A DNA stretch of 61,565 bases. Source: an uncultured Gammaproteobacteria bacterium (lineage in GTDB: Bacteria > Patescibacteriota > Patescibacteriia > Magasanikbacterales > UBA922). Of the stretch, positions 5,069 to 61,565 are shown piece by piece. The notes beneath the pieces are model-generated. The model saw nothing but the letters and a program-made list of their open reading frames with translations, was not told the origin of the DNA and did no database searches. Made by a program: the position numbers and the translations under genes. The stretch is taken from contig CAZKAD010000001.1 of the NCBI GenBank assembly GCA_964550845.1, forward strand, positions 197,750-259,314, in the 5' to 3' direction. Numbering within the stretch: position 1 is the stretch's first letter; each line of letters starts with the position of its first letter.

Positions 5069-6073
5069 ATGGAGCAAAAAGTCGAAGCGAAAATTCCTTC
5101 AAAGATTAAGAAGTTCTTTACTCGACTCCAACTTCAACGAAAGTCAAATCCGGACGAATGGGACATCAAATATCGATATGTGTTGAATCAAGTCAAATTG
5201 ATGACGAAGAGACAACTTCGTCGATTGAGGAAGTTAAATTCTCGTGTAACTGAAATTGGACCATCCGAGACGATGTCGGACCTTATTTCAGTTTACTTTG
5301 CCTTATTCAAAGGAGAACCACTTGAAGCGAATTTGATTAAGAGTGAATACAATAGTGAATTTTATTGGTGGTTGAACCCGTCCTTCCAGGACTTGAACCC
5401 GTCCCTCCTCCGGGACTCGAAGCCGGTCAATCAAAAAGGGTGTTATCCACCCTATTTCGCTTTGAATCAAAACTGGATTGCTTGGTTGAAGAAAATCTTT
5501 CCGTTGGCGAATATTCGACTTTCGCCTTTTTCCATTTATTCTTATTGTTCAGACGGAGAAAAGATTTCGTTCAAGAAGTACTTCCCAAAGTATCCAGTCA
5601 TTTATCTCGATTATGAACTGTCGACCGATAAGAACTTCTGGATAGACGTGAATTGGTATGAGAAATATCATCTCAAATCAGTTCGAAAGTATGCCAGTGA
5701 AATTCACTGTAACATCGAAGGATTGTTACAATTCCTTTTCCTTCCAGTTGATCAAGTTGAATGGATTCATGGTGATCCAGATTGTTATTCAGCTTTCCTT
5801 CAACTTGAAGCCGAGACCTATTCCGAAGTGAAAGAACGAAAAATTGTCGTCCATTCTTCCGAATGGCGTCGAGAGTCCAATCAAAGATTGTTTGAGAAGG
5901 TGAAGCAAGAGTTCGACAATGATCCAAACTTCATTGATCGAACTCTCGCCGCGTTAACTAAGTGGGGTGAATTCAATGAATTTTCAACCATTACTTTTCA
6001 ACGACCAATTGACGTTGAAAAGTACAAACAAACCGTGAAAGAGCTGTTGAACAGCCAAATTACATTTGAATAA
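5069..6073 (+). CDS. hypothetical protein
   Basis: 334-aa ORF with AAAATTGA at 5013..5020 and terminator hairpin 6076..6099. Confidence 0.75.
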   Translation: MEQKVEAKIPSKIKKFFTRLQLQRKSNPDEWDIKYRYVLNQVKLMTKRQLRRLRKLNSRVTEIGPSETMSDLISVYFALFKGEPLEANLIKSEYNSEFYWWLNPSFQDLNPSLLRDSKPVNQKGCYPPYFALNQNWIAWLKKIFPLANIRLSPFSIYSYCSDGEKISFKKYFPKYPVIYLDYELSTDKNFWIDVNWYEKYHLKSVRKYASEIHCNIEGLLQFLFLPVDQVEWIHGDPDCYSAFLQLEAETYSEVKERKIVVHSSEWRRESNQRLFEKVKQEFDNDPNFIDRTLAALTKWGEFNEFSTITFQRPIDVEKYKQTVKELLNSQITFE

Positions 6074-9528: not shown

Positions 9529-9549
9529 TTACAATAATAAATGTGCCTC

Positions 9550-9660
9550 TTAACGTCCTCGAAAGGACTGGTTAAACGTCCTCGAAAGGACTGGTTAAAC
9601 GTCCTCGAAAGGACTAGTTAAACGTCCTCGAAAAAAGGACTGGTTAAACGTCTAGAAAAC
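9550..9660 (+). repeat. GTTAAAC-hairpin element, tandem array (~4.5 units)
   Basis: ttaa(a)cgtcctcgaaaggactgg repeated with period 23 (26 in unit 4), between convergent genes. Confidence 0.9.
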
Positions 9661-11315: not shown

Positions 11316-11681
11316 ATGTCTTCTCGAATTGATGTACTTGCTAAAACCATCTTTACAATTGCTATATTCGGATTGGCCATCTTTTTCACTCTATTGTCAA
11401 TTTACCGAACACCGAATTATCAAGAATGCGATTATAAGTTTTGTACAACTCCTTGTCCGACAAATCCTGATATTTGTAGAGAATATGGCTGTAATGTGTG
11501 CTATAGCAAAGGATCTTGTATTGACAATTGCCAACCTTATCCATTGGCAAGCTTTATCATTTCTGTAATTGCTGCAATTGTAATGTGGATTACAATATTA
11601 TTTTGGCTTTATTATTTGATTAAGGCAGCTCGAAACCATCAGATCGAAGCTCAACAATACGAAGGTTATCGAACTTTTTAA
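11316..11681 (+). CDS. small TM - Cys-rich - TM membrane protein
   Basis: 121 aa: an N-terminal TM (IFTIAIFGLAIFFTLLSI), a 10-Cys segment, then a second TM. The stop TAA lies inside the first GTTAAAC unit. Confidence 0.75.
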   Translation: MSSRIDVLAKTIFTIAIFGLAIFFTLLSIYRTPNYQECDYKFCTTPCPTNPDICREYGCNVCYSKGSCIDNCQPYPLASFIISVIAAIVMWITILFWLYYLIKAARNHQIEAQQYEGYRTF

Positions 11682-11760
11682 ACATCCCTTCGGGATTGGT
11701 TAAACATCCCTTCGGGATTGGTTAAACGGCCCTTCGGGATTGGTTAAACTTCCTTCAAAT
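11678..11760 (+). repeat. GTTAAAC-hairpin element, tandem array (~3.5 units)
   Basis: ttaaacatcccttcgggattgg x2, ttaaacggcccttcgggattgg, and a partial unit. The first unit holds the stop codon of 11316..11681. Confidence 0.9.
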
Positions 11761-18823: not shown

Positions 18824-18903
18824 GTAAACGTCCCTTCGGGATTGGTTAAACTTCCCTTCGGGATTGGTTAAACGTCCCTTCGGGATTTTCTGAATTGGTT
18901 AAA
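18824..18903 (+). repeat. GTTAAAC-hairpin element, tandem array (3 units) ending ggttaaa-ATG
   Basis: gtaaacgtcccttcgggattgg, ttaaacttcccttcgggattgg, ttaaacgtcccttcgggatt, then ttctgaattggttaaa. Confidence 0.9.
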
Positions 18904-23369: not shown

Positions 23370-23733
23370 ATGGCTTCGAGTCAACCAAATCGTCTTTTCA
23401 CTGTTGGAGATTCTGCTTCGAGTCCTTATGGAACGTGTTCAAGTGAGCTGATCGCCATCTTCTCAGCTAAATCAAGAGAAGATGTAATTAATTATTTGAC
23501 AGTCAAGTACAAAAAGTATATTCCAGTCGATAAGTTGCGTCTATACTTTTTACGAAGGTATGACAAGAAAAAGCCTAGACACACCTTTGTACAATTCCCT
23601 CGATCAACTGTACACGGATTTCGGAGCTTGTGCTCCAGAAACGGGGAAAAATTTTATTTTTCTTGTTGAAGGATACATTCATAACACTTTTCATATTGTC
23701 GATCAAGGTGAAATGGAAGTTATCAAATTGTGA
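23370..23733 (+). pseudogene. frameshifted paralog of 23852..24190
   Basis: Frame 1 (23370..23669) matches the paralog up to RRYDKK. The C-terminal match (SLDTPLYNSLDQL...FIFLVEGYIHNTFHIVDQGEMEVIKL) is in the +1 frame and ends at TGA 23731..23733. The switch falls at the A5 run 23568..23572. Confidence 0.6.
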
Positions 23734-24271: not shown

Positions 24272-24892
24272 ATGTCAAACTCATCCGAACAAATTACTTC
24301 AATTCGGCTGCTCAAAGGTAGGCAAAATTATGATGCAAGCGAGATCTATAAGTATTTCGACGAAAGAGCTGAGTTTGATGTCATTTTCAAGAAGGGTGAT
24401 CAAGAAACTGAAGGTATCTTTTCAGTCGCTGAGAACAAACTTAACACAGACGATATCATCTTTGATGCTTCGCTCGACCCATCTGCAATTACGGCAATTG
24501 GAGTGAACTTTAAATGTAAAATGATTACAGCGAACTGGGACTACGGAAGCGGTTATTTCAGCTGGAGAGTACGTCTACGACCCCTTCATCATTTTTCTAC
24601 CTATCGTGGTGCTTCTCTTAAAACCCAACATATTTTGATTCGAATTTCAGATCATCGCCTGTTCATCAACGATGTGAAAGATTTTTTTGCTTGTTTTGCA
24701 AGATTTTTATCAATGCAATACTCTCCATTTAAGCTCGAATTCTCGTTTCGGTCTTGCAATCTTGAGAATGTCCCACAAATGACAGCATTGATACTCGAGT
24801 CGATTAAAAATACAAAAATCGAAGAGAAAAATTTTTGTAAGATCGAGCTGACTCACAATTTAAAAGAGTATACAGCAATATTCTCTAAATAA
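24272..24892 (+). CDS. hypothetical protein, paralog of 27055..27753
   Basis: 206 aa sharing ETEGIFSV, SPFKLEF and other segments with 27055..27753. Confidence 0.75.
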   Translation: MSNSSEQITSIRLLKGRQNYDASEIYKYFDERAEFDVIFKKGDQETEGIFSVAENKLNTDDIIFDASLDPSAITAIGVNFKCKMITANWDYGSGYFSWRVRLRPLHHFSTYRGASLKTQHILIRISDHRLFINDVKDFFACFARFLSMQYSPFKLEFSFRSCNLENVPQMTALILESIKNTKIEEKNFCKIELTHNLKEYTAIFSK

Positions 24893-27054: not shown

Positions 27055-27753
27055 ATGGCTCAAGAAATAAATCGAGAACTCCCTGGAGTGGTTAAATGTC
27101 CCGAAGGACCGGTTAAAAACTCTAAACTAGTTAAAGTTAAATTGCTTCGTGCATACAAAGAGTATAAAGTCGAAAATCTTCTCAACTATTTTGATGGTAC
27201 AGAAAAGTTCGATGCTTTGTTCTCAACTGAAGATAAACAAGAAACAAAAGGCATTTTTTCGGTACATTCTCGAGACGATTGGTCAGACATTGATCTTGAC
27301 ATTTCGGATGTAGATGCTTCTATAATTGGTGCAATTGGACCTACTACTCAGTTTAAAAGTATGGTTGCATATTGGAATCTTGGATGTGGTCTTTTCGGTC
27401 CGATAGTGTACGAAAGAAATTTAAGATATCTTGATTTATATAGAGACAGACCTCTTAGAACGAAGTCCCTTATTATCAAGATTAAGGATATTGCATTTAA
27501 TGTGTATAGCATTGAAAGAGTTTTAAAATCACTTGCCAATTTTGTAATTTTCCAGCTATCTCCATTTAAATTGGAATTTGAATGGGGAGCAAATGTTAGG
27601 GAACAAAACGTTCAACAATTTGTAAACTCTTGCGAGAAGATTGCACGAGAAAAAATCGAAAATAAATTTGGAGTTCGAATCGAAACGGAGCTACTTTCGT
27701 TAGACAAATATTGTGGAGGTACATTTTTGTCTGTCTTACGTGCAATTCCATAA
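27055..27753 (+). CDS. hypothetical protein, paralog of 24272..24892, with an in-frame repeat insert near the N-terminus
   Basis: Trimmed to the ATG at 27055 because the longer ORF runs through hairpin 27009..27032. Residues ELPGVVKCPEGPVKNSKLVKV are encoded by element copy 27090..27140 and are absent from the paralog. Confidence 0.75.
   Translation: MAQEINRELPGVVKCPEGPVKNSKLVKVKLLRAYKEYKVENLLNYFDGTEKFDALFSTEDKQETKGIFSVHSRDDWSDIDLDISDVDASIIGAIGPTTQFKSMVAYWNLGCGLFGPIVYERNLRYLDLYRDRPLRTKSLIIKIKDIAFNVYSIERVLKSLANFVIFQLSPFKLEFEWGANVREQNVQQFVNSCEKIAREKIENKFGVRIETELLSLDKYCGGTFLSVLRAIP
27090..27140 (+). repeat. GTTAAAC-hairpin element inside a CDS
   Basis: ggttaaatgtcccgaaggaccggttaaaaactctaaactagttaaagttaa, read in frame as VVKCPEGPVKNSKLVKV. 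Confidence 0.8.
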
Positions 27754-29043: not shown

Positions 29044-29077
29044 GGTTAAACGTCCTTATGGGACTAGTTAAAATTGA
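29044..29077 (+). repeat. GTTAAAC-hairpin element
   Basis: ggttaaacgtccttatgggactagttaaaattga. Confidence 0.85.
29070..29077 (+). promoter_or_regulatory. AAAATTGA octamer fused to the end of a repeat unit
   Basis: 58 nt upstream of ATG 29135. Confidence 0.55.
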
Positions 29078-30244: not shown

Positions 30245-30583
30245 ATGATTACGGTACAACGATCTGATTTATTGGCTAAAAGACCTCGAGATTTCTGGGT
30301 TTATATTTTGTCAGCGAATAAGGCTGCATATCCCACACCAGATACCAAGGCTTATCAAATGATTGACAAGTTGCTTGATGATCCAAAATGTAATATTTGG
30401 TTGATCAAACGTCCCGTAGGACTGATCAAACAAGAAGATAATAATGTAACTATTCTCTCAAATGATCAAGTGCTTTGGGAAGAGAGTTTCGATTCGAATG
30501 CCGATCTAGATACAATTCTCCTTATCTTTGAATTGCTTGACAAAAAAGATGATCAATCTTCGAAACGAAAACAACCATCCTGA
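30245..30583 (+). CDS. hypothetical protein with an in-frame repeat insert
   Basis: Start at ATG 30245 (alternative 30212). WLIKRPVGLIKQ is encoded by element copy 30399..30431. Confidence 0.6.
   Translation: MITVQRSDLLAKRPRDFWVYILSANKAAYPTPDTKAYQMIDKLLDDPKCNIWLIKRPVGLIKQEDNNVTILSNDQVLWEESFDSNADLDTILLIFELLDKKDDQSSKRKQPS
30399..30431 (+). repeat. element variant (GATCAAAC flanks) inside a CDS
   Basis: ggttgatcaaacgtcccgtaggactgatcaaac, read as WLIKRPVGLIK. Confidence 0.7.
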
Positions 30584-30634: not shown

Positions 30635-30657
30635 CAAATGCTAAACAAAAATTTTTA

Positions 30658-30680
30658 CTAGTCCCACGGGACATTTAATC
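30658..30680 (-). repeat. element copy at the 3' end of the macro gene
   Basis: ctagtcccacgggacatttaatc, containing the stop codon 30675..30677. Confidence 0.6.
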
Positions 30681-31169
30681 ATCAAGAGAATAAACATTCA
30701 CTTTCACAACTGGACAAACTATTTTAATCAATAACATTTTCACAACATCCCATGAAAGTTGATCAAGTCCACAACCAATTCTCGGGATTGATATTTCTTT
30801 AACATTTAACGAATTGCATAATCGAACTAAATATTCTAAACATAATTGAAGAGTCTTCAATGTAGGTTTATGATAATATTTATCTTTAGTGACCAAATAA
30901 AATAGATATCGGTCATTTTCTTTCAAGTATGCAACTTGTCCAACCGAAACAGATTGCTTTTCGAGTTCATCGACGCGTCCAAATTTAAATCTAAAATGAT
31001 AAGCAATCCCCTTCATCATTTTGAAATCTCTACTCACACAGTGTCCAAGACTATTCTTGACATCATCGAAAAGATTTCCTCGGATCTCAGAGAATCGATG
31101 GGAAGGTTCAAGTCCCTTTGGGACGGTTTCAAGTCCCTTTGGGACGGTTTCAACTTGAGAGATGTTCAT
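30675..31169 (-). CDS. macro domain protein, TARG1/OARD1-like
   Basis: 164 aa with GNLFD...LGHCVSRDFKMMKGIAYHFRFKFGRVDEL...YLFYLVTKDKYYHKPT...ISIPRIGCGLDQLSW, collinear with the OARD1/TARG1 macro fold as I recall it. The N-terminal ETVPKGL x2 comes from a repeat. Confidence 0.88.
   Translation of the reverse strand: MNISQVETVPKGLETVPKGLEPSHRFSEIRGNLFDDVKNSLGHCVSRDFKMMKGIAYHFRFKFGRVDELEKQSVSVGQVAYLKENDRYLFYLVTKDKYYHKPTLKTLQLCLEYLVRLCNSLNVKEISIPRIGCGLDQLSWDVVKMLLIKIVCPVVKVNVYSLDD
31105..31154 (-). repeat. element variant (GTTGAAAC flanks), 2 units, inside the macro gene
   Basis: The plus strand reads ggttcaagtccctttgggacggtttcaagtccctttgggacggtttcaac. The 21-nt period encodes ETVPKGL x2. Confidence 0.75.
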
Positions 31170-31514: not shown

Positions 31515-31522
31515 TATTTCAT

Positions 31523-31888: not shown

Positions 31889-31929
31889 AATCTTTTTTCG
31901 AAAAAGATCATTTTTCTATTGTTAGAGAA

Positions 31930-33966: not shown

Positions 33967-34014
33967 AATTTCAGTAAAAAGTTTTTATTCTTCAAAAAGG
34001 AAAAGAATTAACAA

Positions 34015-36090: not shown

Positions 36091-36987
36091 ATGTCCTTCC
36101 TTTCAACAGTGCCGCAGAAAGAATTTCCTCTCGATCAAACAAATACTTTGGTCATTTCTGGCGGAGGAATCAAAGGTATTTCTGCATTAGGAGCCTTGTT
36201 TTACTTTGAGAAAACGTATGACATGAAGATTAGTTCATATGCTGGAACTTCAATCGGTTCAATCATTTGTACCTTATTAGCAATTGGATATAAGGCAATT
36301 GAAATTAAATATTACATTGAAAAGCAAAAATTTTTCAATGACATTCAAAAGCTTCAACTACACAAACTTCTCAATGGTCAAGGCATTCTTCCTTGGCAAA
36401 TCATTAGTCATCATCTCGAAAAGATGATTCGAGATAAAGTTGGCTATATTCCCACTTTTCGAGACATTAAAAATCGATTTGGTAATCATCTCACTATTGT
36501 AGCTTTTAACGTGACTGACCGTCGTCCTGAGTTTTTTAATGTTGATACTCATCCAAATCTTTCGGTGATTGAAGCAATTCGAATGAGCGCAAATGTCCCT
36601 CTGTTATTTGATCGTTGTCGATACAATGGAAAGGAATATCTTGATGGAGGTTTAATTTGTAATTATCCAATTGAATATTATCATGAAGCACATCATAAAA
36701 TTCTCGGCATTAATCTCGGAGGAGAAAATATGGTTTTCGGAGATGAAAATTATATCCAATTTCTGCTTGCAATTCTCTCGATGCCATACAATTACCATAA
36801 TCCACACAAAATTAAGGGATGTATTCAAGACCTGAATATTCCTTCAACCGCGTCGGCATTTAATTTTAATTTGTCTGAACATCAGCGAAAAGAAATGTTT
36901 AATATTGGTTTTCAACTGGCCAAAACTAAATTTCCCCAACCTGAACCAGTTAGAAAAATGCCATTGAGGAAGAGCGCCTCATTTTAA
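36091..36987 (+). CDS. patatin-like phospholipase
   Basis: 298 aa with the oxyanion motif ISGGGIKG, the nucleophile elbow GTSIGS (GxSxG), and the catalytic Asp in DGGLICNYP. Confidence 0.9.
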   Translation: MSFLSTVPQKEFPLDQTNTLVISGGGIKGISALGALFYFEKTYDMKISSYAGTSIGSIICTLLAIGYKAIEIKYYIEKQKFFNDIQKLQLHKLLNGQGILPWQIISHHLEKMIRDKVGYIPTFRDIKNRFGNHLTIVAFNVTDRRPEFFNVDTHPNLSVIEAIRMSANVPLLFDRCRYNGKEYLDGGLICNYPIEYYHEAHHKILGINLGGENMVFGDENYIQFLLAILSMPYNYHNPHKIKGCIQDLNIPSTASAFNFNLSEHQRKEMFNIGFQLAKTKFPQPEPVRKMPLRKSASF

Positions 36988-37011
36988 CCAGTCTCCGTAA
37001 AGACGTTTAAA
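36984..37011 (-). repeat. GTTAAAC-hairpin element
   Basis: ttaaccagtctccgtaaagacgtttaaa, containing the patatin stop codon 36985..36987. Confidence 0.75.
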
Positions 37012-37046: not shown

Positions 37047-37979
37047 TTAAATTTCGTACAGACAATCCCGACATCTCACAAAATTTTTGATTTTATTAAT
37101 TACATTGAAAGTTGTATAATCTTCATTCTCGTCTTCACTTTTAAGAAAGCTAGTAATCAAATTGAACACACGAGGATCATACAAATCTTTTGACAAAAAG
37201 AATGGCCAATAAGTTTCACTTTCTTTTTCAGGATGTTCCACGATGAACAATCCAACCTCAATCAAGGTGGCCAATTTATCTTCATGTGAATAAGGTAGAA
37301 AAATTCGTGGAACATCGAGACAAGTTTTCTTGTCTTGTTTCATCGCTTCCCGAATGGCAAGTCCTTCTATCATTTTATCAAGTTCAAGTATTCCTCCACC
37401 ATAACATATCCAAATTTTTAACTGTTGTATTGGCATTGAAACAAGTCCATCAATAGCAGTATCAATTAAATCGAATTCATCTTGGAATCTCTTATTGTTT
37501 GGTAAAAATTTACATCCAATCATACAAACATTATTCAAATGATAACCCAAATAATCATATTCGGCAAACAAAATCGAAGTGATTTGAGTTCTTTTCCCAG
37601 AATAAACGCGAACAGGTAATCGATTGAGAAATTCGAATAATACCGAGTACGAACAATATGGAAGGAAAATTGCTACCGAATGAAAACTAACTAAATTTTT
37701 TCTTTCTTTTGCCCGACGTTCAATCGGTTTCTTAGTTTTAGCAGCATTCTCAAAGGGATCTTTTTTATGCGTATCTGCAAATGCGACCAAGTCAAGCGAG
37801 GCGTCAAGGTCAAGGTTGAGTTTAAACCAATTCCAGCTGTAACTGTATTGGAATCTTGATAATCCAATAGTAATGCCAAGAGTTGATTTTTTCAGCATCA
37901 TCTGTTCAAGACGAGTTAAAAAAGGAATTAAATCTCGGTCGTCTGCCCGACAAAGATATCCAGTTCTCTGCTCGAACAT
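37047..37979 (-). CDS. LYDPRLL-motif family protein, subtype A
   Basis: 310 aa. N-terminus MFEQRTGYLCRADDRDLIPFL is paralogous to 39056..39931. C-terminal FLSKDLYDPRVFNLITSFLK. AAAATTGA on the gene strand at 38041..38048. Confidence 0.8.
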   Translation of the reverse strand: MFEQRTGYLCRADDRDLIPFLTRLEQMMLKKSTLGITIGLSRFQYSYSWNWFKLNLDLDASLDLVAFADTHKKDPFENAAKTKKPIERRAKERKNLVSFHSVAIFLPYCSYSVLFEFLNRLPVRVYSGKRTQITSILFAEYDYLGYHLNNVCMIGCKFLPNNKRFQDEFDLIDTAIDGLVSMPIQQLKIWICYGGGILELDKMIEGLAIREAMKQDKKTCLDVPRIFLPYSHEDKLATLIEVGLFIVEHPEKESETYWPFFLSKDLYDPRVFNLITSFLKSEDENEDYTTFNVINKIKNFVRCRDCLYEI

Positions 37980-38040
37980 ATTTGTTAGAGTAAATTAATA
38001 TTGAATATTGAATATTTTTAGTGAAGAGTGAATATTAATT

Positions 38041-38048
38041 TCAATTTT
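38041..38048 (-). promoter_or_regulatory. AAAATTGA octamer
   Basis: 62 nt upstream of ATG 37979. Confidence 0.6.
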
Positions 38049-38081
38049 GATTTTTCATTCTGTCTAAAGTTTATCAGGAAG

Positions 38082-38984
38082 TTAGTACATCAAAGCATTA
38101 TTCGTCGATCCGACTATTCTTGTAATATGAATTGCATTCATCATTTCCGCTACCTTCTGGAATAAATCAAAGTATTTGGAATCATCTGCGAATTGAGCTA
38201 TCAGACAAAGCAATCTTGGATCATACACTTCTCGGGTTAGAAAAAAGTTGAACACTCCTTTTGATTGAGATAAACCATTTACAACCAAGTTATCAAAAAT
38301 TGGCATCCAAATAAAAGCTCGACGGGGAGAAAAATTATCTCGGAATATTCTTGGGCATTCAACTCGATATTCGGCTTCTAAATCGTGAAAGATGCGTAAG
38401 ATAGCCGGAAAGAAATCATCCATTAGCATCGTGTACAACGAAATATTTGTTTTTGGAAGGACTTGAACAAAAGCACGATAATTGTCAGCAAATTTTTGAA
38501 CGAGAAACTCTCTCCGGGATGAATTTTGATCAAAGAAATAGTTAGCATACGATCTTGTATCCGAATAATTAGCAAGTCGAGCTTTTTGTTCGAGCTCTTC
38601 ATGATCAATACGATTATAGAATAATGCTTCAAATTTAAATGGAACTTGAGGAAGAAATGGAATAAAATCATTCTCAAAATTAATCTCGATGTTATATTGA
38701 TTTAATATCTCGCAAATTTCATCTGGAAAGAAATCAGATATTTTTTCTTTCCCATAGGTATTGAGAATAATTGATATTTGTTTTTGATTTACCAAATCAA
38801 CAGAATCTGGTGAAGTTTTACTTAATTTTGTGATTGAGACATAAATACATTTCCGTTGATTTTTTTGAAATGGATCATTTAAGATCCGAAATATTGGAGG
38901 TTTTCGTCTGCCCTTAACAGCATCTTTCCATTTATGATATAAATCATTCATTGTCGATTTAATCTCCTTCGACCTGATCATCAT
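38082..38984 (-). CDS. LYDPRLL-motif family protein, subtype B
   Basis: 300 aa. IPFLPQVPFKFEALFYNRIDHEEL is paralogous to 40042..40872. C-terminal FLTREVYDPRLLCLIAQFADDS. Confidence 0.8.
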   Translation of the reverse strand: MMIRSKEIKSTMNDLYHKWKDAVKGRRKPPIFRILNDPFQKNQRKCIYVSITKLSKTSPDSVDLVNQKQISIILNTYGKEKISDFFPDEICEILNQYNIEINFENDFIPFLPQVPFKFEALFYNRIDHEELEQKARLANYSDTRSYANYFFDQNSSRREFLVQKFADNYRAFVQVLPKTNISLYTMLMDDFFPAILRIFHDLEAEYRVECPRIFRDNFSPRRAFIWMPIFDNLVVNGLSQSKGVFNFFLTREVYDPRLLCLIAQFADDSKYFDLFQKVAEMMNAIHITRIVGSTNNALMY

Positions 38985-39055
38985 TGTTTGTGAGATTATC
39001 TGTTTTTGTAAGACGTTTAAATTGAATCAAGATTCAATTTATTGTGCGGAAATAT

Positions 39056-39931
39056 TTATCTTGTAAATTGATTGATTAGTATCAATAATCGAGGATCGTA
39101 CAAATCTTGAAGAAAAAAGGATTGTAATAATGATTCGGTATCAGAGAGACCAAGAATGATCAATCGATGAAACTTATTTTCGAGTAGACAATTGTCTTTG
39201 TATGGAAAAACTCTCTGAACATCTAAACAAGTCTTTTTCTTCTCTTGAATAACATCTTGAATAACATCTCGAATAGCAGTATCTTCGACCAACAAAAATG
39301 TTTCCTCTGACTCTGTGTATGAATTACCATCGTGAATCCATAATTGGAGATGTCGAACTGGAATTGAAAGTATCCCTTTGAGAAGAACCCGAACGAATTG
39401 TTTAAGAGGTCTTTCGGGATATTTAACCAGTCCTTCGGGACGTTTAACAAGACCTTGAGGATATATTTTAAATCGAAATATAGTAGTATTGTTTATGTGA
39501 TGTCCTGTATAAGGATATTCGGCGATGAGAATTGATGAAATTTTACTTTTGTTTCCTGAATAAACACGAGTTGGAAACTGATTAATAAAGTCAATAACCA
39601 TTGTGTGTTTTTCTTTTGGAATCATCAGATCGACACAATGAAACATAATTAAATTTGAATGATATTCACCTTGGTATCCAATATTCTTTGATTCCGAATG
39701 ACCATAGTAAACAAACTTTCTTTGTTCTCGTTCAAATTGTTCCAAATCTAACGATTCGTTAAGATCGAGATTTAATAAACACCATTCCCAGTGATAAGAG
39801 TATTCTTCATTATCATCAAGATAAATACCAAGCGTGGCTTTGTCCACCATCATATCTTTAAGATAATTTAAGAAAGAAAATAAATCTCTGTCATCAGACC
39901 GAGAACATAATCCCGATCTATCCGAAAACAT
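39056..39931 (-). CDS. LYDPRLL-motif family protein, subtype A, with a 3-unit in-frame repeat insert
   Basis: 291 aa with N-terminus MFSDRSGLCSRSDDRDLFSFL and C-terminal end FFLQDLYDPRLLILINQFTR. YPQGLVKRPEGLVKYPERPLKQ is encoded by 39400..39472. Confidence 0.8.
   Translation of the reverse strand: MFSDRSGLCSRSDDRDLFSFLNYLKDMMVDKATLGIYLDDNEEYSYHWEWCLLNLDLNESLDLEQFEREQRKFVYYGHSESKNIGYQGEYHSNLIMFHCVDLMIPKEKHTMVIDFINQFPTRVYSGNKSKISSILIAEYPYTGHHINNTTIFRFKIYPQGLVKRPEGLVKYPERPLKQFVRVLLKGILSIPVRHLQLWIHDGNSYTESEETFLLVEDTAIRDVIQDVIQEKKKTCLDVQRVFPYKDNCLLENKFHRLIILGLSDTESLLQSFFLQDLYDPRLLILINQFTR
39400..39472 (-). repeat. GTTAAAC-hairpin element, 3 tandem units inside a CDS
   Basis: The plus strand reads tttaagaggtctttcgggata tttaaccagtccttcgggacg tttaacaagaccttgaggatat. 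On the gene strand it is read as YPQGLVKRPEGLVKYPERPLKQ. Confidence 0.85.
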
Positions 39932-39945
39932 TTTCGGTGTGATTT

Positions 39946-40046
39946 TGGACGTTTAACCACTTCAGAGAGTCCTGGGACGTTTAAAATCAATTTATTTAAT
40001 CAGTCTCGAAGAAAAGTTTAATCAGTCCTTTGGACGTTTAATCAAA
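39946..40046 (-). repeat. GTTAAAC-hairpin element, array of 3-4 divergent units
   Basis: ttggacgtttaaccacttcagagagtcctgggacgtttaaaatc...tttaatcagtctcgaagaaaagtttaatcagtcctttggacgtttaatc. Confidence 0.8.
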
Positions 40047-40872
40047 TTTCATTGGTGTCAATTTCTAATATCGATCGAGCAAGTCGAGACTCCCAAGATT
40101 GCCCCGTTTCATCTCTAAACTCATTGATCAGACAAAGCAATCTTGGATCATATAAATCTTGAGTAAGAAATTGGAACAACGGACCCGATGAGTAAATCGA
40201 TATACTATTCACTACAAGATTGTCCAGCTTAACTAAAGATTCATTTGATTCAAATTCCTCAGATACTTGAAATGTCCTTTTAACTTCACAATTTTCTTCA
40301 ACCTGATGAAAAGCTTTTAAAATTTCAACCGGAAAACTTCGAACAATCACAATATAAGAAGAAATTTTTGATCTTGACAGCGCCTTAAGAAAAATGTGGT
40401 AATTATGTGAGAGTTCTTCGACGAGAAACTTTCGTCTTTCTTGATCTTCATCAAAAAAGTAATTTGTAAAAGAAGAGATAAAGAAATGATCATATAATGT
40501 CTGACATTTTTGTCTTAATTTTTTATCATCAATTTGATTGTAAAAAACTGCTTTGAATGCAAAAGGTATCTGAGGAATAAGATGAACTGAATTCATAATG
40601 AAAGAAATTGAGACATCACAACGCGATATTTTCTCGATTATCTTTTTTGGAAACAATTTATCAAAAGTTTCATTTGTTTGAGGTTCGAGAGAAATGGTGA
40701 TGGAATCTGGGCAAATAACTACATTATTGTACCGCATTGCACTTCTCCCGTGGGTATGAATGAATACTTTTTTCTTTCCTTCGAGAGAGAAAGATTTTTT
40801 CCAATCATCAAAGTGCTGAATTGTTACTGACGAGTGCATCTTTATTAATTGATCAGATAAAAAGAAGATCAT
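40042..40872 (-). CDS. LYDPRLL-motif family protein, subtype B
   Basis: 276 aa with LIPQIPFAFKAVFYNQIDDKKL and C-terminal FLTQDLYDPRLLCLINEFRDET. Confidence 0.8.
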   Translation of the reverse strand: MIFFLSDQLIKMHSSVTIQHFDDWKKSFSLEGKKKVFIHTHGRSAMRYNNVVICPDSITISLEPQTNETFDKLFPKKIIEKISRCDVSISFIMNSVHLIPQIPFAFKAVFYNQIDDKKLRQKCQTLYDHFFISSFTNYFFDEDQERRKFLVEELSHNYHIFLKALSRSKISSYIVIVRSFPVEILKAFHQVEENCEVKRTFQVSEEFESNESLVKLDNLVVNSISIYSSGPLFQFLTQDLYDPRLLCLINEFRDETGQSWESRLARSILEIDTNEI

Positions 40873-44400: not shown

Positions 44401-45402
44401 TTAAAACAAACCAATCAAATTGATCGAGCGAGGATCATACAATTCTTCTGTTAAGAAAGAATGAAAAATACTTGCATTTTTAGCATTTAACCAATCCGAT
44501 AGGACGTTTAACCCGTTAGCAATTAATTGGCAAAAATTCAAATCATTCCAGCACACCGACTTCGATCGCTGTTGGCAAAATCGATGTAGATAATCGATGC
44601 CTGGGTAATCTTCGAAATACCAACACGCAATTAATCTCGCTCCGTGTTTGTTATTTAACTCTTCTGTTTTGTCTGCTGCGAGATAGGAAATGTTTTCAAT
44701 CGGAAGTTTACCTGGATATTGAAGACAATTAAGCAGCATCTTTCGATTATTAATTTCAAGAGTTTTGATGCTTTTTACCTGATTAAAGTAACTCATATCG
44801 CCGTGAAAAAATGGAAACATATAGAAAAGATCACAGACAAGTCCGTTAAGAAATCGATATTGCTCAGTATCAACAAATGGCAACAAGTATCCGAAATGGA
44901 GTCCTTGGTAAGGAAAATTTTCTTTTGCTTGTAGAGAGTAAAATCTTTGAAGAAAAGACCAATCTTGTCTCGGTTCGTCATATGTAAAAAATGGAAGTTC
45001 AATATGGATCACGTTCAACTCGCTAATATCAATATCAGGTAAAGCAGTAACAAGCGCGAAGTTTTCTTTATCGGCTGGTTCCCGGGGTCGAGGTTGAAGC
45101 GAAATGATAAAAAATTCGGTATTTTGTTCACTCTCAAGATTATTTTCGTTTATTGGTTTTTCTCCGTCAATCTTTTGCAGACCGAGTAAATTCTCAAAAC
45201 TTCCAAGCGAAGTAAATATTTTAGCAATCCCATCCGGAAATCTACCTTGTTCAAATTGATCCAGCATATCTTCAAGTTCCTTTTTTGACGAAAGTTCAAT
45301 CGTTTGCGGGAGTTCGTAACGAAACATTTCAGTTGAACTTCTTTCGGAGGGGTGTTTGATTTGATAAACAATTCTTTGAATCAATTTTCTTAGCCAGGTC
45401 AT
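44401..45402 (-). CDS. LYDPRLL-motif family protein with an in-frame repeat insert
   Basis: 333 aa ending FLTEELYDPRSINLIGLF. GLNVLSDWLNAK is encoded by element copy 44486..44515. Confidence 0.8.
   Translation of the reverse strand: MTWLRKLIQRIVYQIKHPSERSSTEMFRYELPQTIELSSKKELEDMLDQFEQGRFPDGIAKIFTSLGSFENLLGLQKIDGEKPINENNLESEQNTEFFIISLQPRPREPADKENFALVTALPDIDISELNVIHIELPFFTYDEPRQDWSFLQRFYSLQAKENFPYQGLHFGYLLPFVDTEQYRFLNGLVCDLFYMFPFFHGDMSYFNQVKSIKTLEINNRKMLLNCLQYPGKLPIENISYLAADKTEELNNKHGARLIACWYFEDYPGIDYLHRFCQQRSKSVCWNDLNFCQLIANGLNVLSDWLNAKNASIFHSFLTEELYDPRSINLIGLF
44486..44515 (-). repeat. GTTAAAC-hairpin element inside a CDS
   Basis: The gene strand reads gggttaaacgtcctatcggattggttaaatgc, translated as GLNVLSDWLNA. 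Confidence 0.85.
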
Positions 45403-45428
45403 CAGAACGCTTAAGGTGATTGCTCACC

Positions 45429-45442
45429 GCCTCCGAAGAGGC
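45429..45442. terminator. short GC-rich hairpin downstream of 45462..46334
   Basis: Arms gcctc / gaggc. The loop reads UUCG on the gene (minus) strand. Confidence 0.5.
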
Positions 45443-45461
45443 TTTTTTATTTGAGAATGTT

Positions 45462-46334
45462 TTATTCTTCTGCGAATTTCCAGATCAAGATTAGCACTCG
45501 AGGGTCGTATAGGCCCATCTCAGGTGTATCGCAACAAAGAAACTTGGTCCAATGATTCGAATCCTTCTTTCCGGATAACCCAGCTAAGATTAAGGTATCA
45601 AAATCTTTCTGTGAGTATAGCCAATTCGTGAATCTATCTGGATTTTGGAGATGACGCTGATAATGTTGAATCAGCAAGCCCCCGTTTGGATACTTATCGA
45701 TCTTCTCAAATGTCGGAATTAAATCCGCTGTGAAAAAACCTGAAATTTCGATTGATTCAACCGGCAACTTTCGTGGATATTGAATCAAATCGATTAAGTC
45801 TTCAGGTTGAGAGATAGTCAAAACTTCAACACGATTCATCTTTTCGATCTTCTTCAGTGTAACTCCGTATTGCTCGAACTGCATCTCAAGAAATTTACAT
45901 CCGAGCCCGTCGAGAAGTTTTCCATAGCAAACAGAGTCAACCAGATGACCTATCTCGACGCTATAAATCCCATCGAATTTTGGAGTTCGTTGGGAATTCA
46001 TTCTTGAGAATTGGCGAAAAATACTATATAGATCTTCCGACAATTCGGGACTCTCGTAGTTGAAGATGAACTTGATCACTGTATTCTCAGGAGTGAAAAT
46101 TTTTTCCACCGTGATTGTATCTTCTTCATCATCTTCCAAGAAATGAGAAATAATGCTGACACATACTACAAATGGATTTTGTTTGTCAAGAATGTTCATT
46201 AGGCTTTTTTGTTCCTCATCCGGGTAAGAATCTTGGAACAATTCTTGGGTAGAGATCTTTCCATCGGTCAAATCTCTCAGCATCTGATTGCATTCATTAA
46301 GAGTAATTTCTCTTGATGAACTGAACTGATTCAT
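45462..46334 (-). CDS. LYDPRLL-motif family protein
   Basis: 290 aa ending EMGLYDPRVLILIWKFAEE. AAAATTGA on the gene strand at 46410..46417. Confidence 0.8.
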   Translation of the reverse strand: MNQFSSSREITLNECNQMLRDLTDGKISTQELFQDSYPDEEQKSLMNILDKQNPFVVCVSIISHFLEDDEEDTITVEKIFTPENTVIKFIFNYESPELSEDLYSIFRQFSRMNSQRTPKFDGIYSVEIGHLVDSVCYGKLLDGLGCKFLEMQFEQYGVTLKKIEKMNRVEVLTISQPEDLIDLIQYPRKLPVESIEISGFFTADLIPTFEKIDKYPNGGLLIQHYQRHLQNPDRFTNWLYSQKDFDTLILAGLSGKKDSNHWTKFLCCDTPEMGLYDPRVLILIWKFAEE

Positions 46335-57174: not shown

Positions 57175-57248
57175 TTAAACGTCCTTGAAGGACTTTTAAG
57201 CGTCCTCGAGAAGGACTTTTAAACGTTCTCGAAAAGAACTCTTTAAAA
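57175..57248 (+). repeat. GTTAAAC-hairpin element, tandem array (3 units)
   Basis: ttaaacgtccttgaaggactt, ttaagcgtcctcgagaaggactt, ttaaacgttctcgaaaagaactc, between convergent genes. Confidence 0.9.
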
Positions 57249-58088: not shown

Positions 58089-59306
58089 ATGTCTTCTTTT
58101 TGGCTTGAGGATCCAACAGAATTGTTCCGAAATTTGGAGCTTCTTCCAAATCCAGGGAGCAATATCGCGTCAAAGTTGAATGCGCTTACGAGATTGGCAG
58201 TTGTAGTCGGACTTGGAATTTATCTTCTTAATAAGGACTCAAAAGAGTCGAGCTCTCTCTGTATAATCACATTTGGTATTCTTCTTTTGTTCATCGTAAT
58301 CACTGCTTATTATTCAAAGAGTAAGGAAGGTTTCCGACCTCCTCCGATGCCAGTAGTTGAAAAGCCTACGCCAACATATCCTCTATCTTCACCAACCGTC
58401 AACCTCTCTGGATTGCAAGCAACCCCATTGTGGTATGATCCAAAATACGGAGCTGGACCAAAAGAATATCGAGACCCTCCAGTAATTCCACCAAATCCGG
58501 CTGATGCTAAATTTTGGGGAGGATTTCAATCGAGGATTAATGAACCTCGACCACAAATTATTCACTCGAATGTTGAAAGTGTTCTGTTCAAAAATGAACA
58601 ACCTTATTCACAGCGAATTAGCCTTCCCTCTCGACAGAGAAAAGGATTTAAAATTCTTGGTGGACCTCATCAAGACGAACCTGAAATTCCATTTGTTATT
58701 GATGACCAGGGACTAAACCCCCCGAATTACACTCGTATTCGAGGATATTCGATGCATGATCCGAGTGTTCCTCCTTATTCGAATCTTGAGCTATTATCAC
58801 CAAGTCAATCTTTTGTTCCGGGAGCTCAAGTCCCTTCGGGACGGTCTCAACTTCATGCTTATGATGACTTTGCAAATGTTTGGTCTGCCGGAAACACTGA
58901 CTTTTTGACCTCTAAGATGGCTATTCATCGTACTCATCCCGCGGTTGATACTGGAGAATTCCGTCAAGCTTCCACAATTGGTCTGGCAGATTCAATGTAC
59001 AATCCAACATTTAAACCGTTTGACCCGGCAAGCACTTATTTTAAGACCAGTAATAACCCTTATGACGGTTTGTTCATTGGACGAAGTCTAATTGAACACG
59101 TTGATATGCGAGCTCCAAATGGTGAAGTTCTTCCCGGTTATTTGAGAATGGGATTTACCAGCGACGACTTTATGGATGAAGCGACAAGTCGTCAAGAAGC
59201 AGATGAATTGTACTTTCGAGAAGCAATGGTTGCCGATGTTCGTGCTCGGATGAATGAGCGAGAGCAAGAATTCCGAATGGCACCTGTAATGAATCATTTC
59301 ATGTAA
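58089..59306 (+). CDS. membrane protein (two N-terminal hydrophobic segments, Pro-rich body)
   Basis: 405-aa ORF with LNALTRLAVVVGLGIYLL and LCIITFGILLLFIVITAYY. Confidence 0.75.
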   Translation: MSSFWLEDPTELFRNLELLPNPGSNIASKLNALTRLAVVVGLGIYLLNKDSKESSSLCIITFGILLLFIVITAYYSKSKEGFRPPPMPVVEKPTPTYPLSSPTVNLSGLQATPLWYDPKYGAGPKEYRDPPVIPPNPADAKFWGGFQSRINEPRPQIIHSNVESVLFKNEQPYSQRISLPSRQRKGFKILGGPHQDEPEIPFVIDDQGLNPPNYTRIRGYSMHDPSVPPYSNLELLSPSQSFVPGAQVPSGRSQLHAYDDFANVWSAGNTDFLTSKMAIHRTHPAVDTGEFRQASTIGLADSMYNPTFKPFDPASTYFKTSNNPYDGLFIGRSLIEHVDMRAPNGEVLPGYLRMGFTSDDFMDEATSRQEADELYFREAMVADVRARMNEREQEFRMAPVMNHFM

Positions 59307-60274: not shown

Positions 60275-61565
60275 ATGGCTGTCTTCTTCGCAAAAAGTCG
60301 GGACCCATTTTCAAACTTTTATCCGGTCTCATTTACTGTCGATGATTTGAAATACTCGAGTTCGGAACAGTATTTTATGGCCTCGAAAGCGAGATTCTTT
60401 AAAGATGTTGAAGCGGAGGACCAGATTATGGAAGCGGAATCTCCGAAAGAACAAAGAGAACTTGGACGTTCAGTCAAAAAGTTTGATCCAAGAGAATGGG
60501 ATCGAGTTAAATTTAAAATCATGAAACAAGCCCTGTTGATTAAATTTCAACTTCCAAAGATGAAAAAGTTCCTTGTTGAGAGTCAACGAAAAGTTTTAAT
60601 TGAAGCTGCACCTTGGGACGCGATTTGGGGAATTGGAATGGATGCTGATAAAGCTGTGAATACACCCTTTCGTGAATGGGGAAAGAATGGACTTGGATTC
60701 TTATTGATGGAAGTTCGAGATTTTCTCCAAGGTAATTGGATTCAAGAAGACTTTGGTGTCTCAATGATTGGAAATTTCTATATCGGTGCACATCCAACTG
60801 AAGACCAAGCAAAGTTTCTTTTGGGAAAAGGAGTGAATCTATTTGTCTCCCTTGAGGAAAATCCAAGATATTTATCAGTTGTTGGTCAAGCATCGTCAAA
60901 AGTTTTTGCTCTTCCTACAGGAGGTATTCGAAATGATCAAGAGACACTTGAATTTCTCGGTTGGTTACGAGATCAATATTTTCTCGGAAAAATCATTTAT
61001 CTCCATAGTCGAAGAGGAATTGGAAGAACCGGATTGATTGCCAGTTTATTTCTGAACTTGTTTCTCGGATATCAACCAAGTGATGCGTTGGATAAAGTTC
61101 GAAAATCTATTCATAGTCGAACTAATTTTAACCAGTCCTTCGGGACGTTTAAGCTTAAATTTATGCCTATTCCAGAAACTGCTTCACAAATAACTCAATT
61201 CACTCGTCTTGCCGACGGTGATAAAACCGATATTGATATGTCTGCTTATACTCTTGAAGCAGAGAAAGCATGGATGACAAAACTTTCTGAAATTGAGCAA
61301 GACGACTTGATGACACGGGAAGATGTCGAATTGTATCAACAAATTGTATCTCCTTCCTCTTCTTCAAAGGAAGTGAAAAAGGAAGATGAAATTAAACGTC
61401 TTGAAAAGTCTCTTAATCTTCCTGTTGGTGCAATTGAAGATGAGCAAGAAAATGACCCTCTTGCGGGTGCACTCGCAGAACTTGAACTTCGAAAGAGTGA
61501 AGAGAAGGAAGAACTTCGAAAGAGTGAAGAGAAGGAAGAACTTCGAAAGAGTGAAGAGAAGGAAG
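60275..61565 (+). CDS. NADAR (DUF1768/YbiA-like) domain fused to a dual-specificity-phosphatase-like domain; 3' end outside the window
   Basis: Not in the ORF track because there is no stop before the window end. I translated it from ATG 60275: MAVFFAKSRDPFSNFYPVSFTVDDLKYSSSEQYFMASKARFF...APWDAIWGIGMD (NADAR), then ...IIYLHSRRGIGRTGLIASLF, a P-loop with Ser where the catalytic Cys is expected. AAAATTGA at 60234..60241. Confidence 0.85.
   Translation, partial: MAVFFAKSRDPFSNFYPVSFTVDDLKYSSSEQYFMASKARFFKDVEAEDQIMEAESPKEQRELGRSVKKFDPREWDRVKFKIMKQALLIKFQLPKMKKFLVESQRKVLIEAAPWDAIWGIGMDADKAVNTPFREWGKNGLGFLLMEVRDFLQGNWIQEDFGVSMIGNFYIGAHPTEDQAKFLLGKGVNLFVSLEENPRYLSVVGQASSKVFALPTGGIRNDQETLEFLGWLRDQYFLGKIIYLHSRRGIGRTGLIASLFLNLFLGYQPSDALDKVRKSIHSRTNFNQSFGTFKLKFMPIPETASQITQFTRLADGDKTDIDMSAYTLEAEKAWMTKLSEIEQDDLMTREDVELYQQIVSPSSSSKEVKKEDEIKRLEKSLNLPVGAIEDEQENDPLAGALAELELRKSEEKEELRKSEEKEELRKSEEKE
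61128..61153 (-). repeat. GTTAAAC-hairpin element inside a CDS (reverse to the gene)
   Basis: ttaaccagtccttcgggacgtttaag, read as NQSFGTFK in the NADAR-phosphatase-like gene. Confidence 0.85.
61484..61565. repeat. 27-bp coding tandem repeat, 3 or more units, running off the window
   Basis: gaacttcgaaagagtgaagagaaggaa, encoding ELRKSEEKE. Confidence 0.9.

What the first reader, a model, noticed from the sequence alone, without database searches (positions are those of the whole stretch)
39400..39472. The hairpin element is inserted in frame inside at least six protein-coding genes
Copies lie within ORFs and are read through without stops. 39400..39472 (3 units) gives YPQGLVKRPEGLVKYPERPLKQ in a LYDPRLL-family gene, and its paralog 37047..37979 has no equivalent tripled segment. 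27090..27140 gives VVKCPEGPVKNSKLVKV, absent from paralog 24272..24892. 30399..30431 gives WLIKRPVGLIK. 31105..31154 gives ETVPKGLETVPKGL at the N-terminus of the macro domain protein. 44486..44515 gives GLNVLSDWLNA. 61128..61153 gives NQSFGTFK between the phosphatase-like domain and the acidic tail. Most use the frame that yields (V/I)K(R/C)P(E/V)G(L/P)(V/I)K. In-frame colonisation of genes by a palindromic repeat is known for Rickettsia palindromic elements. I am not aware of it for a giant-virus element of this type.
Basis: partly seen in the sequence, partly recalled or inferred. Interest (0 to 1): 0.8.

Follow-up and report, generated by a model that had tools for sequence, protein, structure and literature searches.

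The report
Tiny hairpin repeats inserted inside virus genes
A 21-base hairpin repeat that normally sits behind genes in this giant-virus-like genome has also been copied, always in frame, into at least nine protein-coding genes, and related strains differ in whether or how many copies each gene carries.

Summary
A covariance model built only from intergenic hairpin units (TTAAAC-GTCC-loop-GGAC-TGG) finds four of the six cited sites at E of 0.002 or better. It finds 30405 marginally (E 0.058). 31105 belongs to a sister subfamily (TTCAA-GTCCC-TTC-GGGAC-GGG), whose own model finds three more in-frame sites: 5372, 23417 and 58825. Related strains and distant orthologs show unit presence/absence or copy-number change at seven of the nine window sites. 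These are the focal gene (0/3/5 units), NADAR-phosphatase (0/1/2), minor capsid P9 (0/1), ORF 5069 (0/1/2), ORF 23370 (0/1), ORF 44401 (0/1) and macro (2/3). One further gene carries a unit only in a relative. Single-unit insertions add 21 nt: a 16-nt core flanked by a 5-nt direct repeat, of which the empty allele has one similar copy. The same DNA is read in seven frame/orientation combinations, so DNA and not peptide is the conserved entity. Host genes have dN/dS below 1. Intergenic copies lie mostly just 3' of genes in a genome that follows a hairpin rule. Best reading: a small mobile or copy-pasted 3'-end hairpin module, tolerated in loops and termini. It is analogous to Rickettsia palindromic elements and to REP/MITE elements, but not a member of those families. 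I found no prior description.

The parts
39400..39472 (-). Focal in-frame array: one intact canonical unit (39421-39447) flanked by two decayed 21-nt units. Encodes GLVKRPEGLVKYPERPLK in ORF 39056-39931.
   Evidence: R1 33.7 bits, E 3e-5. Period 21. Absent from P0003-P0005 and the paralog. L003 has 54 nt more.
39056..39931 (-). Host gene, a member of a tandem paralog family with a C-terminal LYDPR motif.
   Evidence: dN/dS 0.25 against L003.
27092..27118 (+). Canonical unit, sense, frame VKCPEGPVK, near the N-terminus of ORF 27004-27753.
   Evidence: R1 31.1 bits, E 1e-4. Lies N-terminal to the region shared with paralog 24272-24892. Kept in L005 and L006.
30405..30431 (+). Decayed canonical unit, sense, frame IKRPVGLIK, in ORF 30149-30583.
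   Evidence: R1 E 0.058 in the window. Ortholog L006:7055-7081 scores 32.5 bits. Conserved in three orthologs; no empty allele found.
31107..31153 (+). Two variant-subfamily units, antisense to the macro (OARD1/TARG1-like) gene 30675-31169. They encode ETVPKGLETVPKGL N-terminal to the domain.
   Evidence: R2 44.4 and 26.2 bits. PDB 2eee aligns to aa 22-162. L005 has a third 21-nt unit.
44485..44511 (-). Canonical unit, sense, frame LNVLSDWLN, in ORF 44401-45402.
   Evidence: R1 26.2 bits, E 2e-3. The paralog has a gap here. Strain L015/P0229 lacks 24 nt here; five other strains keep it.
61126..61152 (-). Canonical unit, antisense, frame FNQSFGTFK, in the phosphatase-like domain of the NADAR-DSP ORF 60275->61565.
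   Evidence: R1 36.2 bits. 0 units in P0008/L011 and P0010, 1 in the window, 2 in P0006/L010. AF2 places it in a low-confidence coil between helices 268-284 and 303-312.
58825..58850 (+).
   Evidence: R2 37.6 bits, E 2e-6. Pfam P9_TM. Exact 7-aa / 21-nt gap in L011 (71% protein identity) and in L014/P0182 (99% protein identity).
5372..5416 (-).
   Evidence: R2 31.4 bits, E 7e-5. 0 units in four ENA strains (L016), 1 in JGI L017, 2 in the window.
23417..23442 (+).
   Evidence: R2 22.3 bits, E 0.01. Exact 7-aa gap in the L006 ortholog.
38264..38274 (-). Empty site in ORF 38082-38984. Relative L003 carries a 21-nt variant unit here (TTCAAGTCCCTTCGGGACCGG, FQVPSGP).
9549..9649 (+). Intergenic array of four canonical units (period 23), 3' of ORF 8863-9489.
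11678..11749 (+). Intergenic array of three units (period 22). The TAA of the first unit is the stop codon of ORF 11316-11681.
18824..18890 (+). Intergenic array of three units, 3' of ORF 17629-18717.
57175..57248 (+). Intergenic array of three units, 3' of ORF 56740-57153.
29046..29073 (+). Single intergenic unit, absent from relative L005 (30-nt indel).
36982..37010 (-). Single intergenic unit, 3' of ORF 37047-37979. It also supplies the TAA stop of the convergent patatin gene 36091-36987.
30652..30678 (-). Single unit whose TAA is the stop codon of the macro gene.

Best explanation
The genome looks like a giant virus (Nucleocytoviricota-like) and follows a 'hairpin rule': most genes are followed by a palindrome.

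One class of these 3' hairpins is a short repeated module. It consists of a 16-18-nt core with a 4-5-bp GTCC/GGAC stem, bounded on both sides by a TTAAA or TTCAA pentamer. It occurs singly or in head-to-tail arrays.

The module spreads by adding one unit at a site that already carries a similar pentamer (YTNAA). The pentamer then flanks the core on both sides. Either a target-site duplication or a microhomology-primed copy-paste would give this result.

The version with a 16-nt core adds exactly 21 nt, or 7 codons, so it never shifts the frame. Four of six frames are stop-free in the canonical subfamily and five of six in the TTCAA subfamily. An insertion into a gene is therefore often survivable.

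The GC-rich stem and loop mostly encode Pro, Gly, Ser, Asp and Glu. Surviving copies sit at N-termini or between conserved blocks. Once present, arrays gain and lose units, probably by slippage or unequal recombination.

Shown here: the nucleotide identity of intragenic and intergenic copies, the presence/absence and copy-number polymorphisms, the flanking repeats, the frame diversity, and purifying selection on the host genes.

Inferred: the insertion mechanism, translation through the units, and the 3'-end function of the intergenic copies.
For: 1. **Same DNA inside and outside genes.** Models trained on copies outside the tested genes recover the intragenic copies.

2. **Seven of nine window sites vary by whole units** between strains or orthologs: 39448 (+54 nt in L003), 61126 (0/1/2), 58825 (0/1), 5372 (0/1/2), 23417 (0/1), 44485 (0/1) and 31150 (2/3). 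In addition, a unit is present only in L003 at window position 38269.

3. **Flanking repeats** (filled allele compared with empty allele):
- P9: [CTCAA]GTCCCTTCGGGACGGT[CTCAA] compared with a single CTCAA.
- 38269: [TTCAA]...[TTCAA] compared with CTCAA.
- 23417: [TTCGA]...[TTCAA] compared with TTCAA.
- 61126: [TTTAA]...[TTTAA] compared with TTCAA.
- 5372: [TTGAA]...[TTGAA] compared with CTAAA.

4. **Frame diversity.** The observed peptides match seven of the nine stop-free frame/orientation translations of the two consensus units.

5. **Purifying selection.** dN/dS is 0.06-0.33 for five host genes, 0.19 for the 30149 gene, and 0.56-0.69 for ORF 27004.

6. **Distribution.** Canonical loci are 13 intergenic and 5 coding, although 88% of the window is coding (P = 7e-9). 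Eleven of the 13 intergenic loci are sense-oriented just 3' of a gene (P = 0.011). Thirty-five of 64 ORFs have a palindrome of 6 bp or more near the stop codon, against 10 of 64 mid-gene controls.

7. **Another genome.** L008 shares only the elements with the window. It has five in-frame variant units in an ORF whose paralog lacks them.
Against: - There is no direct evidence that the ORFs are translated, or even transcribed, through the units.
- No transposase-like gene was found in the window. The rest of the genome was not available.
- The polarity of the close-strain polymorphisms (P9/L014, 38269, 44485) is not resolved. Precise deletion between the flanking pentamers would leave the same 'empty' allele.
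- The 44485 indel is 24 nt and has no clean duplication.
- Empty-site pentamers match the flanks exactly in only two of five cases.
- Sites 2 and 3 have no empty comparator.
- The long AT-rich hairpins, not the TTAAAC units, lie closest to most stop codons. The units may therefore not be the primary 3'-end signal.
- The structure models are of low confidence.
Confidence: 0.7

Rival explanations
1. Pure minisatellite behaviour. The units arose in place in each gene and only expand and contract by replication slippage. There is no movement between loci.
For: Copy number changes by whole units at existing arrays.
Against: The same 21-nt sequence is found in at least ten unrelated genes, in seven frame/orientation states, and in intergenic DNA. 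Single units appear at sites where close or distant orthologs have none.
Confidence: 0.05
2. The intragenic copies are functional internal terminators or processing sites. They were selected to give truncated transcripts or protein isoforms, and are not merely tolerated insertions.
For: Seven of eleven intragenic loci are in the same orientation as the gene. Intergenic copies sit at 3' ends in sense orientation. Intragenic hairpins are about as stable as intergenic ones.
Against: The copies are polymorphic among near-identical strains. Four of eleven are antisense. Sequence downstream of the units stays conserved and under purifying selection. Several units are decayed.
Confidence: 0.12
3. Non-transpositional gene conversion or template switching. 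Units are copied from existing arrays into sites with pentamer microhomology during replication or repair, with no dedicated enzyme.
For: The junction structure is the same as in the main explanation. No transposase was found in the window. The empty-site pentamers match imperfectly.
Against: Nothing seen here excludes it. It is a mechanistic sub-variant of the main explanation and cannot be separated from enzyme-mediated insertion with these data.
Confidence: 0.4
4. The peptide is the selected entity: a short linear motif recruited repeatedly. The nucleotide similarity is secondary.
For: VKRPEGL-like peptides recur at three sites.
Against: The same DNA yields unrelated peptides (LNVLSDW, QSFGTF, QVPSGR, SSPYGT, TVPKGLE, NPSFQDL) according to frame and strand. 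Most copies are non-coding.
Confidence: 0.02

Closest known systems
Rickettsia palindromic elements (RPE)
   Same: A dispersed palindromic repeat found in frame inside unrelated, functional protein-coding genes. Insertions add a peptide segment and the host ORF stays intact (review PMC10969869).
   Different: RPEs are about 100-150 bp, each family encodes one conserved peptide, and they are bacterial. Here the unit is 21 nt, forms tandem arrays, is read in seven frames, occurs in a giant-virus-like genome, and has its main niche at gene 3' ends. No sequence relationship was seen or expected.
Bacterial REP/BIME elements and terminator-like MITEs (e.g. SPRITE)
   Same: Very short imperfect palindromes (tens of nt). 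They are mostly extragenic and just downstream of genes, often clustered, and vary in copy number between strains.
   Different: REPs are mobilised by RAYT (Y1 HUH) transposases and are rarely coding. No such enzyme was found in the window, and a flanking pentamer duplication is not a REP feature (this point rests on my own knowledge).
Giant-virus 'hairpin rule' 3'-end signals (Mimiviridae, Marseilleviridae, Pithovirus)
   Same: Palindromes concentrated just after stop codons (PMC4402537, PMC5413956). This window shows the same pattern.
   Different: The described hairpins are gene-specific sequences, not a repeated family. Noumeavirus has palindromes in coding regions, but they were not reported as inserted repeat units polymorphic between strains.
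Pandoravirus salinus Submariner MITEs
   Same: A repeat family in a giant virus in which 10 of 30 copies overlap predicted coding regions (PMC4495683).
   Different: Submariner elements are about 200-250 bp Tc1/mariner MITEs with long terminal inverted repeats and TA duplications. They mostly overlap short hypothetical ORFs. They are not 7-codon in-frame modules inside conserved genes.

Membership tests
Rickettsia palindromic elements | Palindromic repeat inserted in frame in functional ORFs | tested here: met
   dN/dS.
Rickettsia palindromic elements | Element length about 100-150 bp, encoding one conserved peptide per family | tested here: not met
   The unit is 21-24 nt. The same DNA is read in seven frames.
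MITE | Target-site duplication flanking the element, with the empty site carrying one copy | tested here: inconclusive
   5-nt direct repeats flank all five single-unit insertions. The empty alleles carry one similar pentamer, exact in 2 of 5 cases. Microhomology-mediated copying or precise deletion would look the same.
MITE | Terminal inverted repeats and a length of roughly 50-800 bp, related to an autonomous transposon | tested here: not met
   The core is 16-18 nt, and the only inverted repeat is the 4-5-bp stem. No transposase domain was found in the window's ORFs.
REP/RAYT system | Short (about 20-40 nt) imperfect palindromes, mainly extragenic, often in clusters | tested here: met
REP/RAYT system | Cognate RAYT (Y1 HUH) transposase in the genome | not testable with these tools
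   None was found in the 61-kb window (Pfam). The remaining ~200 kb of the source contig was not available.
Giant-virus hairpin-rule 3'-end signal | Palindrome located just downstream of stop codons, in the sense orientation of the upstream gene | tested here: met
   Eleven of 13 intergenic loci (P = 0.011). Genome-wide pattern.
Giant-virus hairpin-rule 3'-end signal | Transcripts are cleaved and polyadenylated at the hairpin (RNase III-dependent) | not testable with these tools
   No transcript data are available, and no RNase III gene was found in the window.
Coding minisatellite | Head-to-tail in-frame units whose number varies between strains | tested here: met
Coding minisatellite | Confined to one locus or one gene family | tested here: not met
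   Found in at least ten unrelated genes and in intergenic DNA.

The most novel reading that the evidence does not exclude
This would be the smallest known mobile module: a 16-nt hairpin core plus a 5-nt target duplication. It would derive from, or double as, the virus's own mRNA 3'-end hairpin signal. A viral or host enzyme would insert it at YTNAA sites. Its 21-nt length makes it intrinsically frame-neutral, so it continually generates 7-residue insertion polymorphisms in viral proteins, including a capsid component.
Probability: 0.3. Interest if true: 0.85.

Novelty: new variant of a known kind. Interest (0 to 1): 0.72.

Why it matters
It shows a concrete and currently active route by which non-coding regulatory hairpins become protein sequence in a large DNA virus. 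Unit gain and loss can be seen between strains that are 93-99% identical, in an enzyme domain and in a virion protein.

It extends the 'selfish DNA in coding genes' phenomenon, known from Rickettsia, to giant viruses and to a much smaller unit.

It raises a testable conflict. If these hairpins are 3'-end processing signals, how do sense-oriented copies inside genes escape cleavage?

It also matters for annotation. Repeat-masking or splitting ORFs at these hairpins would be wrong.

Tried and rejected
- **IMG/VR scans.** Scans for the focal protein and for two element patterns found nothing.
- **Public metagenome scan.** It returned only two contigs, L008 and L009, and did not return L003's JGI contig, which carries an exact match to the pattern. 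It therefore says little about how widespread the element is.
- **A wasted protein search.** The search with the NADAR-phosphatase ORF including its acidic low-complexity tail returned nothing. The exhaustive search without the tail worked.
- **'Period 21 is exclusive to coding arrays'.** Rejected. Arrays L008:13921-14040 and L009:1473-1541 have period 21 but lie after stop codons. What holds is that only units whose length is a multiple of three (21 nt, one of 24 nt) occur in ORFs, while the window's intergenic arrays have periods of 22-23.
- **'The TTAAAC units are the primary terminators'.** Weakened. Longer AT-rich palindromes lie closer to most stop codons.
- **Length variation in the kinase cluster (575/589 aa).** This is a start-codon difference, not an element. 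The 310/303-aa difference of paralog 37047-37979 is a C-terminal difference.
- **AF2 model of the focal protein.** Too poor to use (pLDDT 52).
- **Rfam and tRNA scans.** Nothing found.
- **Virus family and sample origin.** Not identified.

Full report
**Context**

The window has about 36% G+C and is about 88% coding. It encodes:
- a type II topoisomerase and a Rad50/SMC-like ATPase;
- a PBCV-1 P9-like minor capsid protein, collagen-like proteins and Ser/Thr kinases;
- Skp1, GNAT and fasciclin-domain proteins;
- a patatin;
- an OARD1/TARG1-like macro protein;
- a NADAR + DSP-phosphatase-like ORF. In a close relative this ORF continues into methyltransferase and VP39-like domains.

This is a giant-virus-like (Nucleocytoviricota-like) gene set. 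I could not assign a family. The source is an NCBI contig of 259 kb. Strains with roughly 85-95% DNA identity occur in several Logan, ENA and JGI assemblies.

**The element**

Repeat finders and a hairpin scan define a unit TTAAAC-GTCC(C)-loop-GGAC-TGG. It is followed by the next TTAAAC and occurs singly or in arrays of period 21-23.

I aligned 21 intergenic units and built covariance model R1. Searching the window with no filters recovers the training copies. It also recovers copies that were not used for training and lie inside ORFs:

| Copy | Bits | E-value |
|---|---|---|
| 61126-61152 | 36.2 | 7e-6 |
| 39421-39447 | 33.7 | 3e-5 |
| 27092-27118 | 31.1 | 1e-4 |
| 44485-44511 | 26.2 | 2e-3 |
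| 30405-30431 | 20.3 | 0.058 |

The orthologous copy of the last site in relative L006 scores 32.5 bits. It is therefore a real but decayed copy.

The sixth cited site (31105-31154) belongs to a sister subfamily, TTCAA-GTCCC-TTC-GGGAC-GGG. I modelled this subfamily (R2) from copies in other genomes. Two of the eight training sequences come from L005 and are orthologous to the window's macro site, so the 31107 hit is partly by construction. R2 finds:
- 31107-31153;
- 58825-58850 (E 2e-6);
- 5372-5397 (E 7e-5);
- 23417-23442 (E 0.01).

All four loci are inside ORFs. The last three hits are independent of the training set. Rfam has no matching family.

**Are they insertions?**

| Site | Host gene | Window | Comparators |
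|---|---|---|---|
| 39400-39472 | LYDPR-family ORF 39056-39931 | 3 units (1 intact) | 0 in three homologs (37-42% identity) and paralog 37047-37979; 54 nt more (two 21-nt units plus 12 nt) in L003 (90% protein identity), within nearly identical flanking DNA |
| 61126-61152 | NADAR-DSP ORF 60275->61565 | 1 unit (FNQSFGTFK) | 2 in P0006/L010 (93%); 0 in P0008/L011 (56%) and P0010 (39%); motifs on both sides conserved |
| 58825-58850 | Minor capsid P9, 58089-59306 | 1 unit (QVPSGRS) | An exact 7-residue gap in L011 (71%) and in P0182/L014 (99% protein identity, ~93% DNA identity) |
| 5372-5416 | ORF 5069-6073 | 2 units | 1 in the JGI strain (L017); 0 in four ENA strains |
| 23417-23442 | ORF 23370-23669 | 1 unit | 7-residue gap in L006 |
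| 44485-44511 | ORF 44401-45402 | 1 unit | Strain L015 lacks 24 nt at the unit; five other strains keep it; the in-window paralog has a gap there |
| 31107-31153 | Macro, 30675-31169 | 2 units | 3 in L005; the gene is absent from L004 and L006 |
| 38269 | ORF 38082-38984 | 0 units | 1 unit in L003 (21 nt) |

- Sites 27092 and 30405 are conserved in all relatives found, so no empty allele is available for them.
- An unrelated contig, L008, shares only the elements with the window. It has five in-frame variant units in an ORF whose paralog has a gap of about 32 residues there.

**Junctions**

Each single-unit gain is 21 nt: a 16-nt core between two copies of a pentamer. The empty allele carries one similar pentamer.

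| Site | Filled allele | Empty allele |
|---|---|---|
| P9 (58825) | [CTCAA]GTCCCTTCGGGACGGT[CTCAA] | CTCAA |
| 38269 | [TTCAA]...[TTCAA] | CTCAA |
| 23417 | [TTCGA]...[TTCAA] | TTCAA |
| 61126 | [TTTAA]...[TTTAA] | TTCAA |
| 5372 | [TTGAA]...[TTGAA] | CTAAA |

This pattern fits a target-site duplication. It fits microhomology-primed copying of one unit equally well. Read in reverse, it fits precise deletion between the repeats. Polarity is clear only where distant orthologs lack the unit (P9, the phosphatase-like domain, the focal gene).

**DNA, not peptide**

I translated tandem consensus units in all six frames. This gives four open frames for the canonical unit and five for the variant. 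The observed peptides match seven of these nine:
- KRPEGLV
- LNVPKDW
- QSFGTFN
- QVPSGRV
- SSPFGTG
- PVPKGLE
- PSRRDLN

Orientation relative to the host gene is 7 sense and 4 antisense, counting the L003 and L008 sites.

**Host genes are functional**

| Gene | dN/dS against relatives |
|---|---|
| NADAR-DSP | 0.06 |
| P9 | 0.08 (dS saturated) |
| 30149 | 0.19 |
| Focal gene | 0.25 |
| Macro | 0.33 |
| 38082 | 0.33 |
| 27004 | 0.56-0.69 |

**Position in the proteins**

- The macro units precede the domain, which PDB 2eee aligns to residues 22-162.
- The 27092 unit is N-terminal to the region shared with the paralog.
- The phosphatase unit lies after the helix that follows the P-loop and before the conserved PIPET...Q helix. 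The AF2 model places it in a low-confidence coil between helices 268-284 and 303-312.
- The focal-protein model is too poor to use.

**Normal niche**

- Thirteen canonical loci are intergenic and five are coding, although 88% of the window is coding (P = 7e-9).
- Eleven of the 13 intergenic loci are sense-oriented immediately 3' of a gene (P = 0.011).
- Three window genes use the element's TAA as their stop codon: 11316-11681, 30675-31169 and 36091-36987. One gene each in L008 and L009 does the same.
- The genome as a whole follows a hairpin rule. Thirty-five of 64 ORFs have a perfect palindrome of 6 bp or more near the stop codon, against 10 of 64 mid-gene controls. These stems are typically 10-13 bp and AT-rich, with CTCG or TTCG loops. 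The distant relative L011 shows the same pattern.
- The TTAAAC units usually lie just beyond these long hairpins, so they may be accessory 3'-end structures.
- Hairpin stabilities are similar for intergenic and intragenic units (means -5.1 and -4.9 kcal/mol).

**Comparison with what is known**

- The hairpin rule is established for Mimiviridae, Marseilleviridae and probably Pithovirus (PMC4402537, PMC5413956). Those hairpins are not a repeat family.
- Pithovirus MITE-like repeats are described as non-coding (PMC10664404).
- Ten of 30 Pandoravirus Submariner MITEs overlap predicted ORFs (PMC4495683).
- In-frame colonisation is classic for Rickettsia palindromic elements (PMC10969869).

The present element behaves like RPE, REP or MITE elements. 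It fails the size and architecture criteria of RPE and MITE, and no mobilising enzyme was found in the window. I found no description of such an element in giant viruses.

**Verdict**

The thing is a new variant of a known kind of phenomenon. The insertion mechanism and the expression consequences remain open.

Noticed in passing
window-wide; e.g. 23760-23803, 24207-24250, 27000-27043, 31481-31524: A second hairpin class: long AT-rich perfect palindromes (10-13 bp stems, CTCG/TTCG/CGAG loops) follow most genes ('hairpin rule'). One version (TTTTCCTTCTCTCGAGAAGGAAAA) recurs at four places. At 27004 it overlaps the first ATG of the ORF, so that gene's real start is probably M18 (27055).
   Followed up: partly
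window 60275->61565; L010:101-3691; L011:6001-9900: The NADAR + phosphatase-like ORF has Ser in place of the catalytic Cys (HSRRGIGRTG). In this lineage it is fused through an acidic repeat linker to methyltransferase and VP39-like (PARP_regulatory) domains, giving 1196 aa in L010. In the more distant relative L011 these are two separate genes (342 and 945 aa).
   Followed up: partly
window 37047-40872 and 44401-46334: A tandem family of six paralogs of 276-333 aa has no Pfam match and shares a C-terminal LYDPR(L/V)(L/F) motif. Three of them have received hairpin units in one strain or another. Two of those insertions fall in the same loop after a conserved 'GL', about 20 residues before the motif.
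   Followed up: partly
window 30675-31169 and 31861-35982: The macro gene is absent from relatives L004 and L006, and the two collagen-like genes are absent from L004. Genes 29096-30186 are missing in L006 and L007. This part of the genome is a gene-content hotspot.
   Followed up: partly
window 52187-55046: A strongly skewed low-complexity region with nested tandem repeats (periods 12-90). It carries long overlapping ORFs on both strands, and one has a DUF5767 match. The gene calls here are uncertain.
   Followed up: no
window 55175-55282, 61484-61565, 1963-2032: Perfect in-frame tandem repeats unrelated to the hairpin element: 39 nt x 2.8, 27 nt x 3 (ELRKSEEKE) and 18 nt x 3.8.
   Followed up: no
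window 11679-11681, 30675-30677, 36985-36987; L008:13931-13933; L009:1474-1476: Several genes use the TAA inside the element's TTAAA spacer or loop as their stop codon. Insertions in the 'closed' frames may therefore define new C-termini.
   Followed up: partly
window 2894-4285: An ORF with a T5orf172/MUG113 (GIY-YIG-related) domain is the only nuclease-like gene seen in the window. There is no evidence linking it to the element.
   Followed up: no
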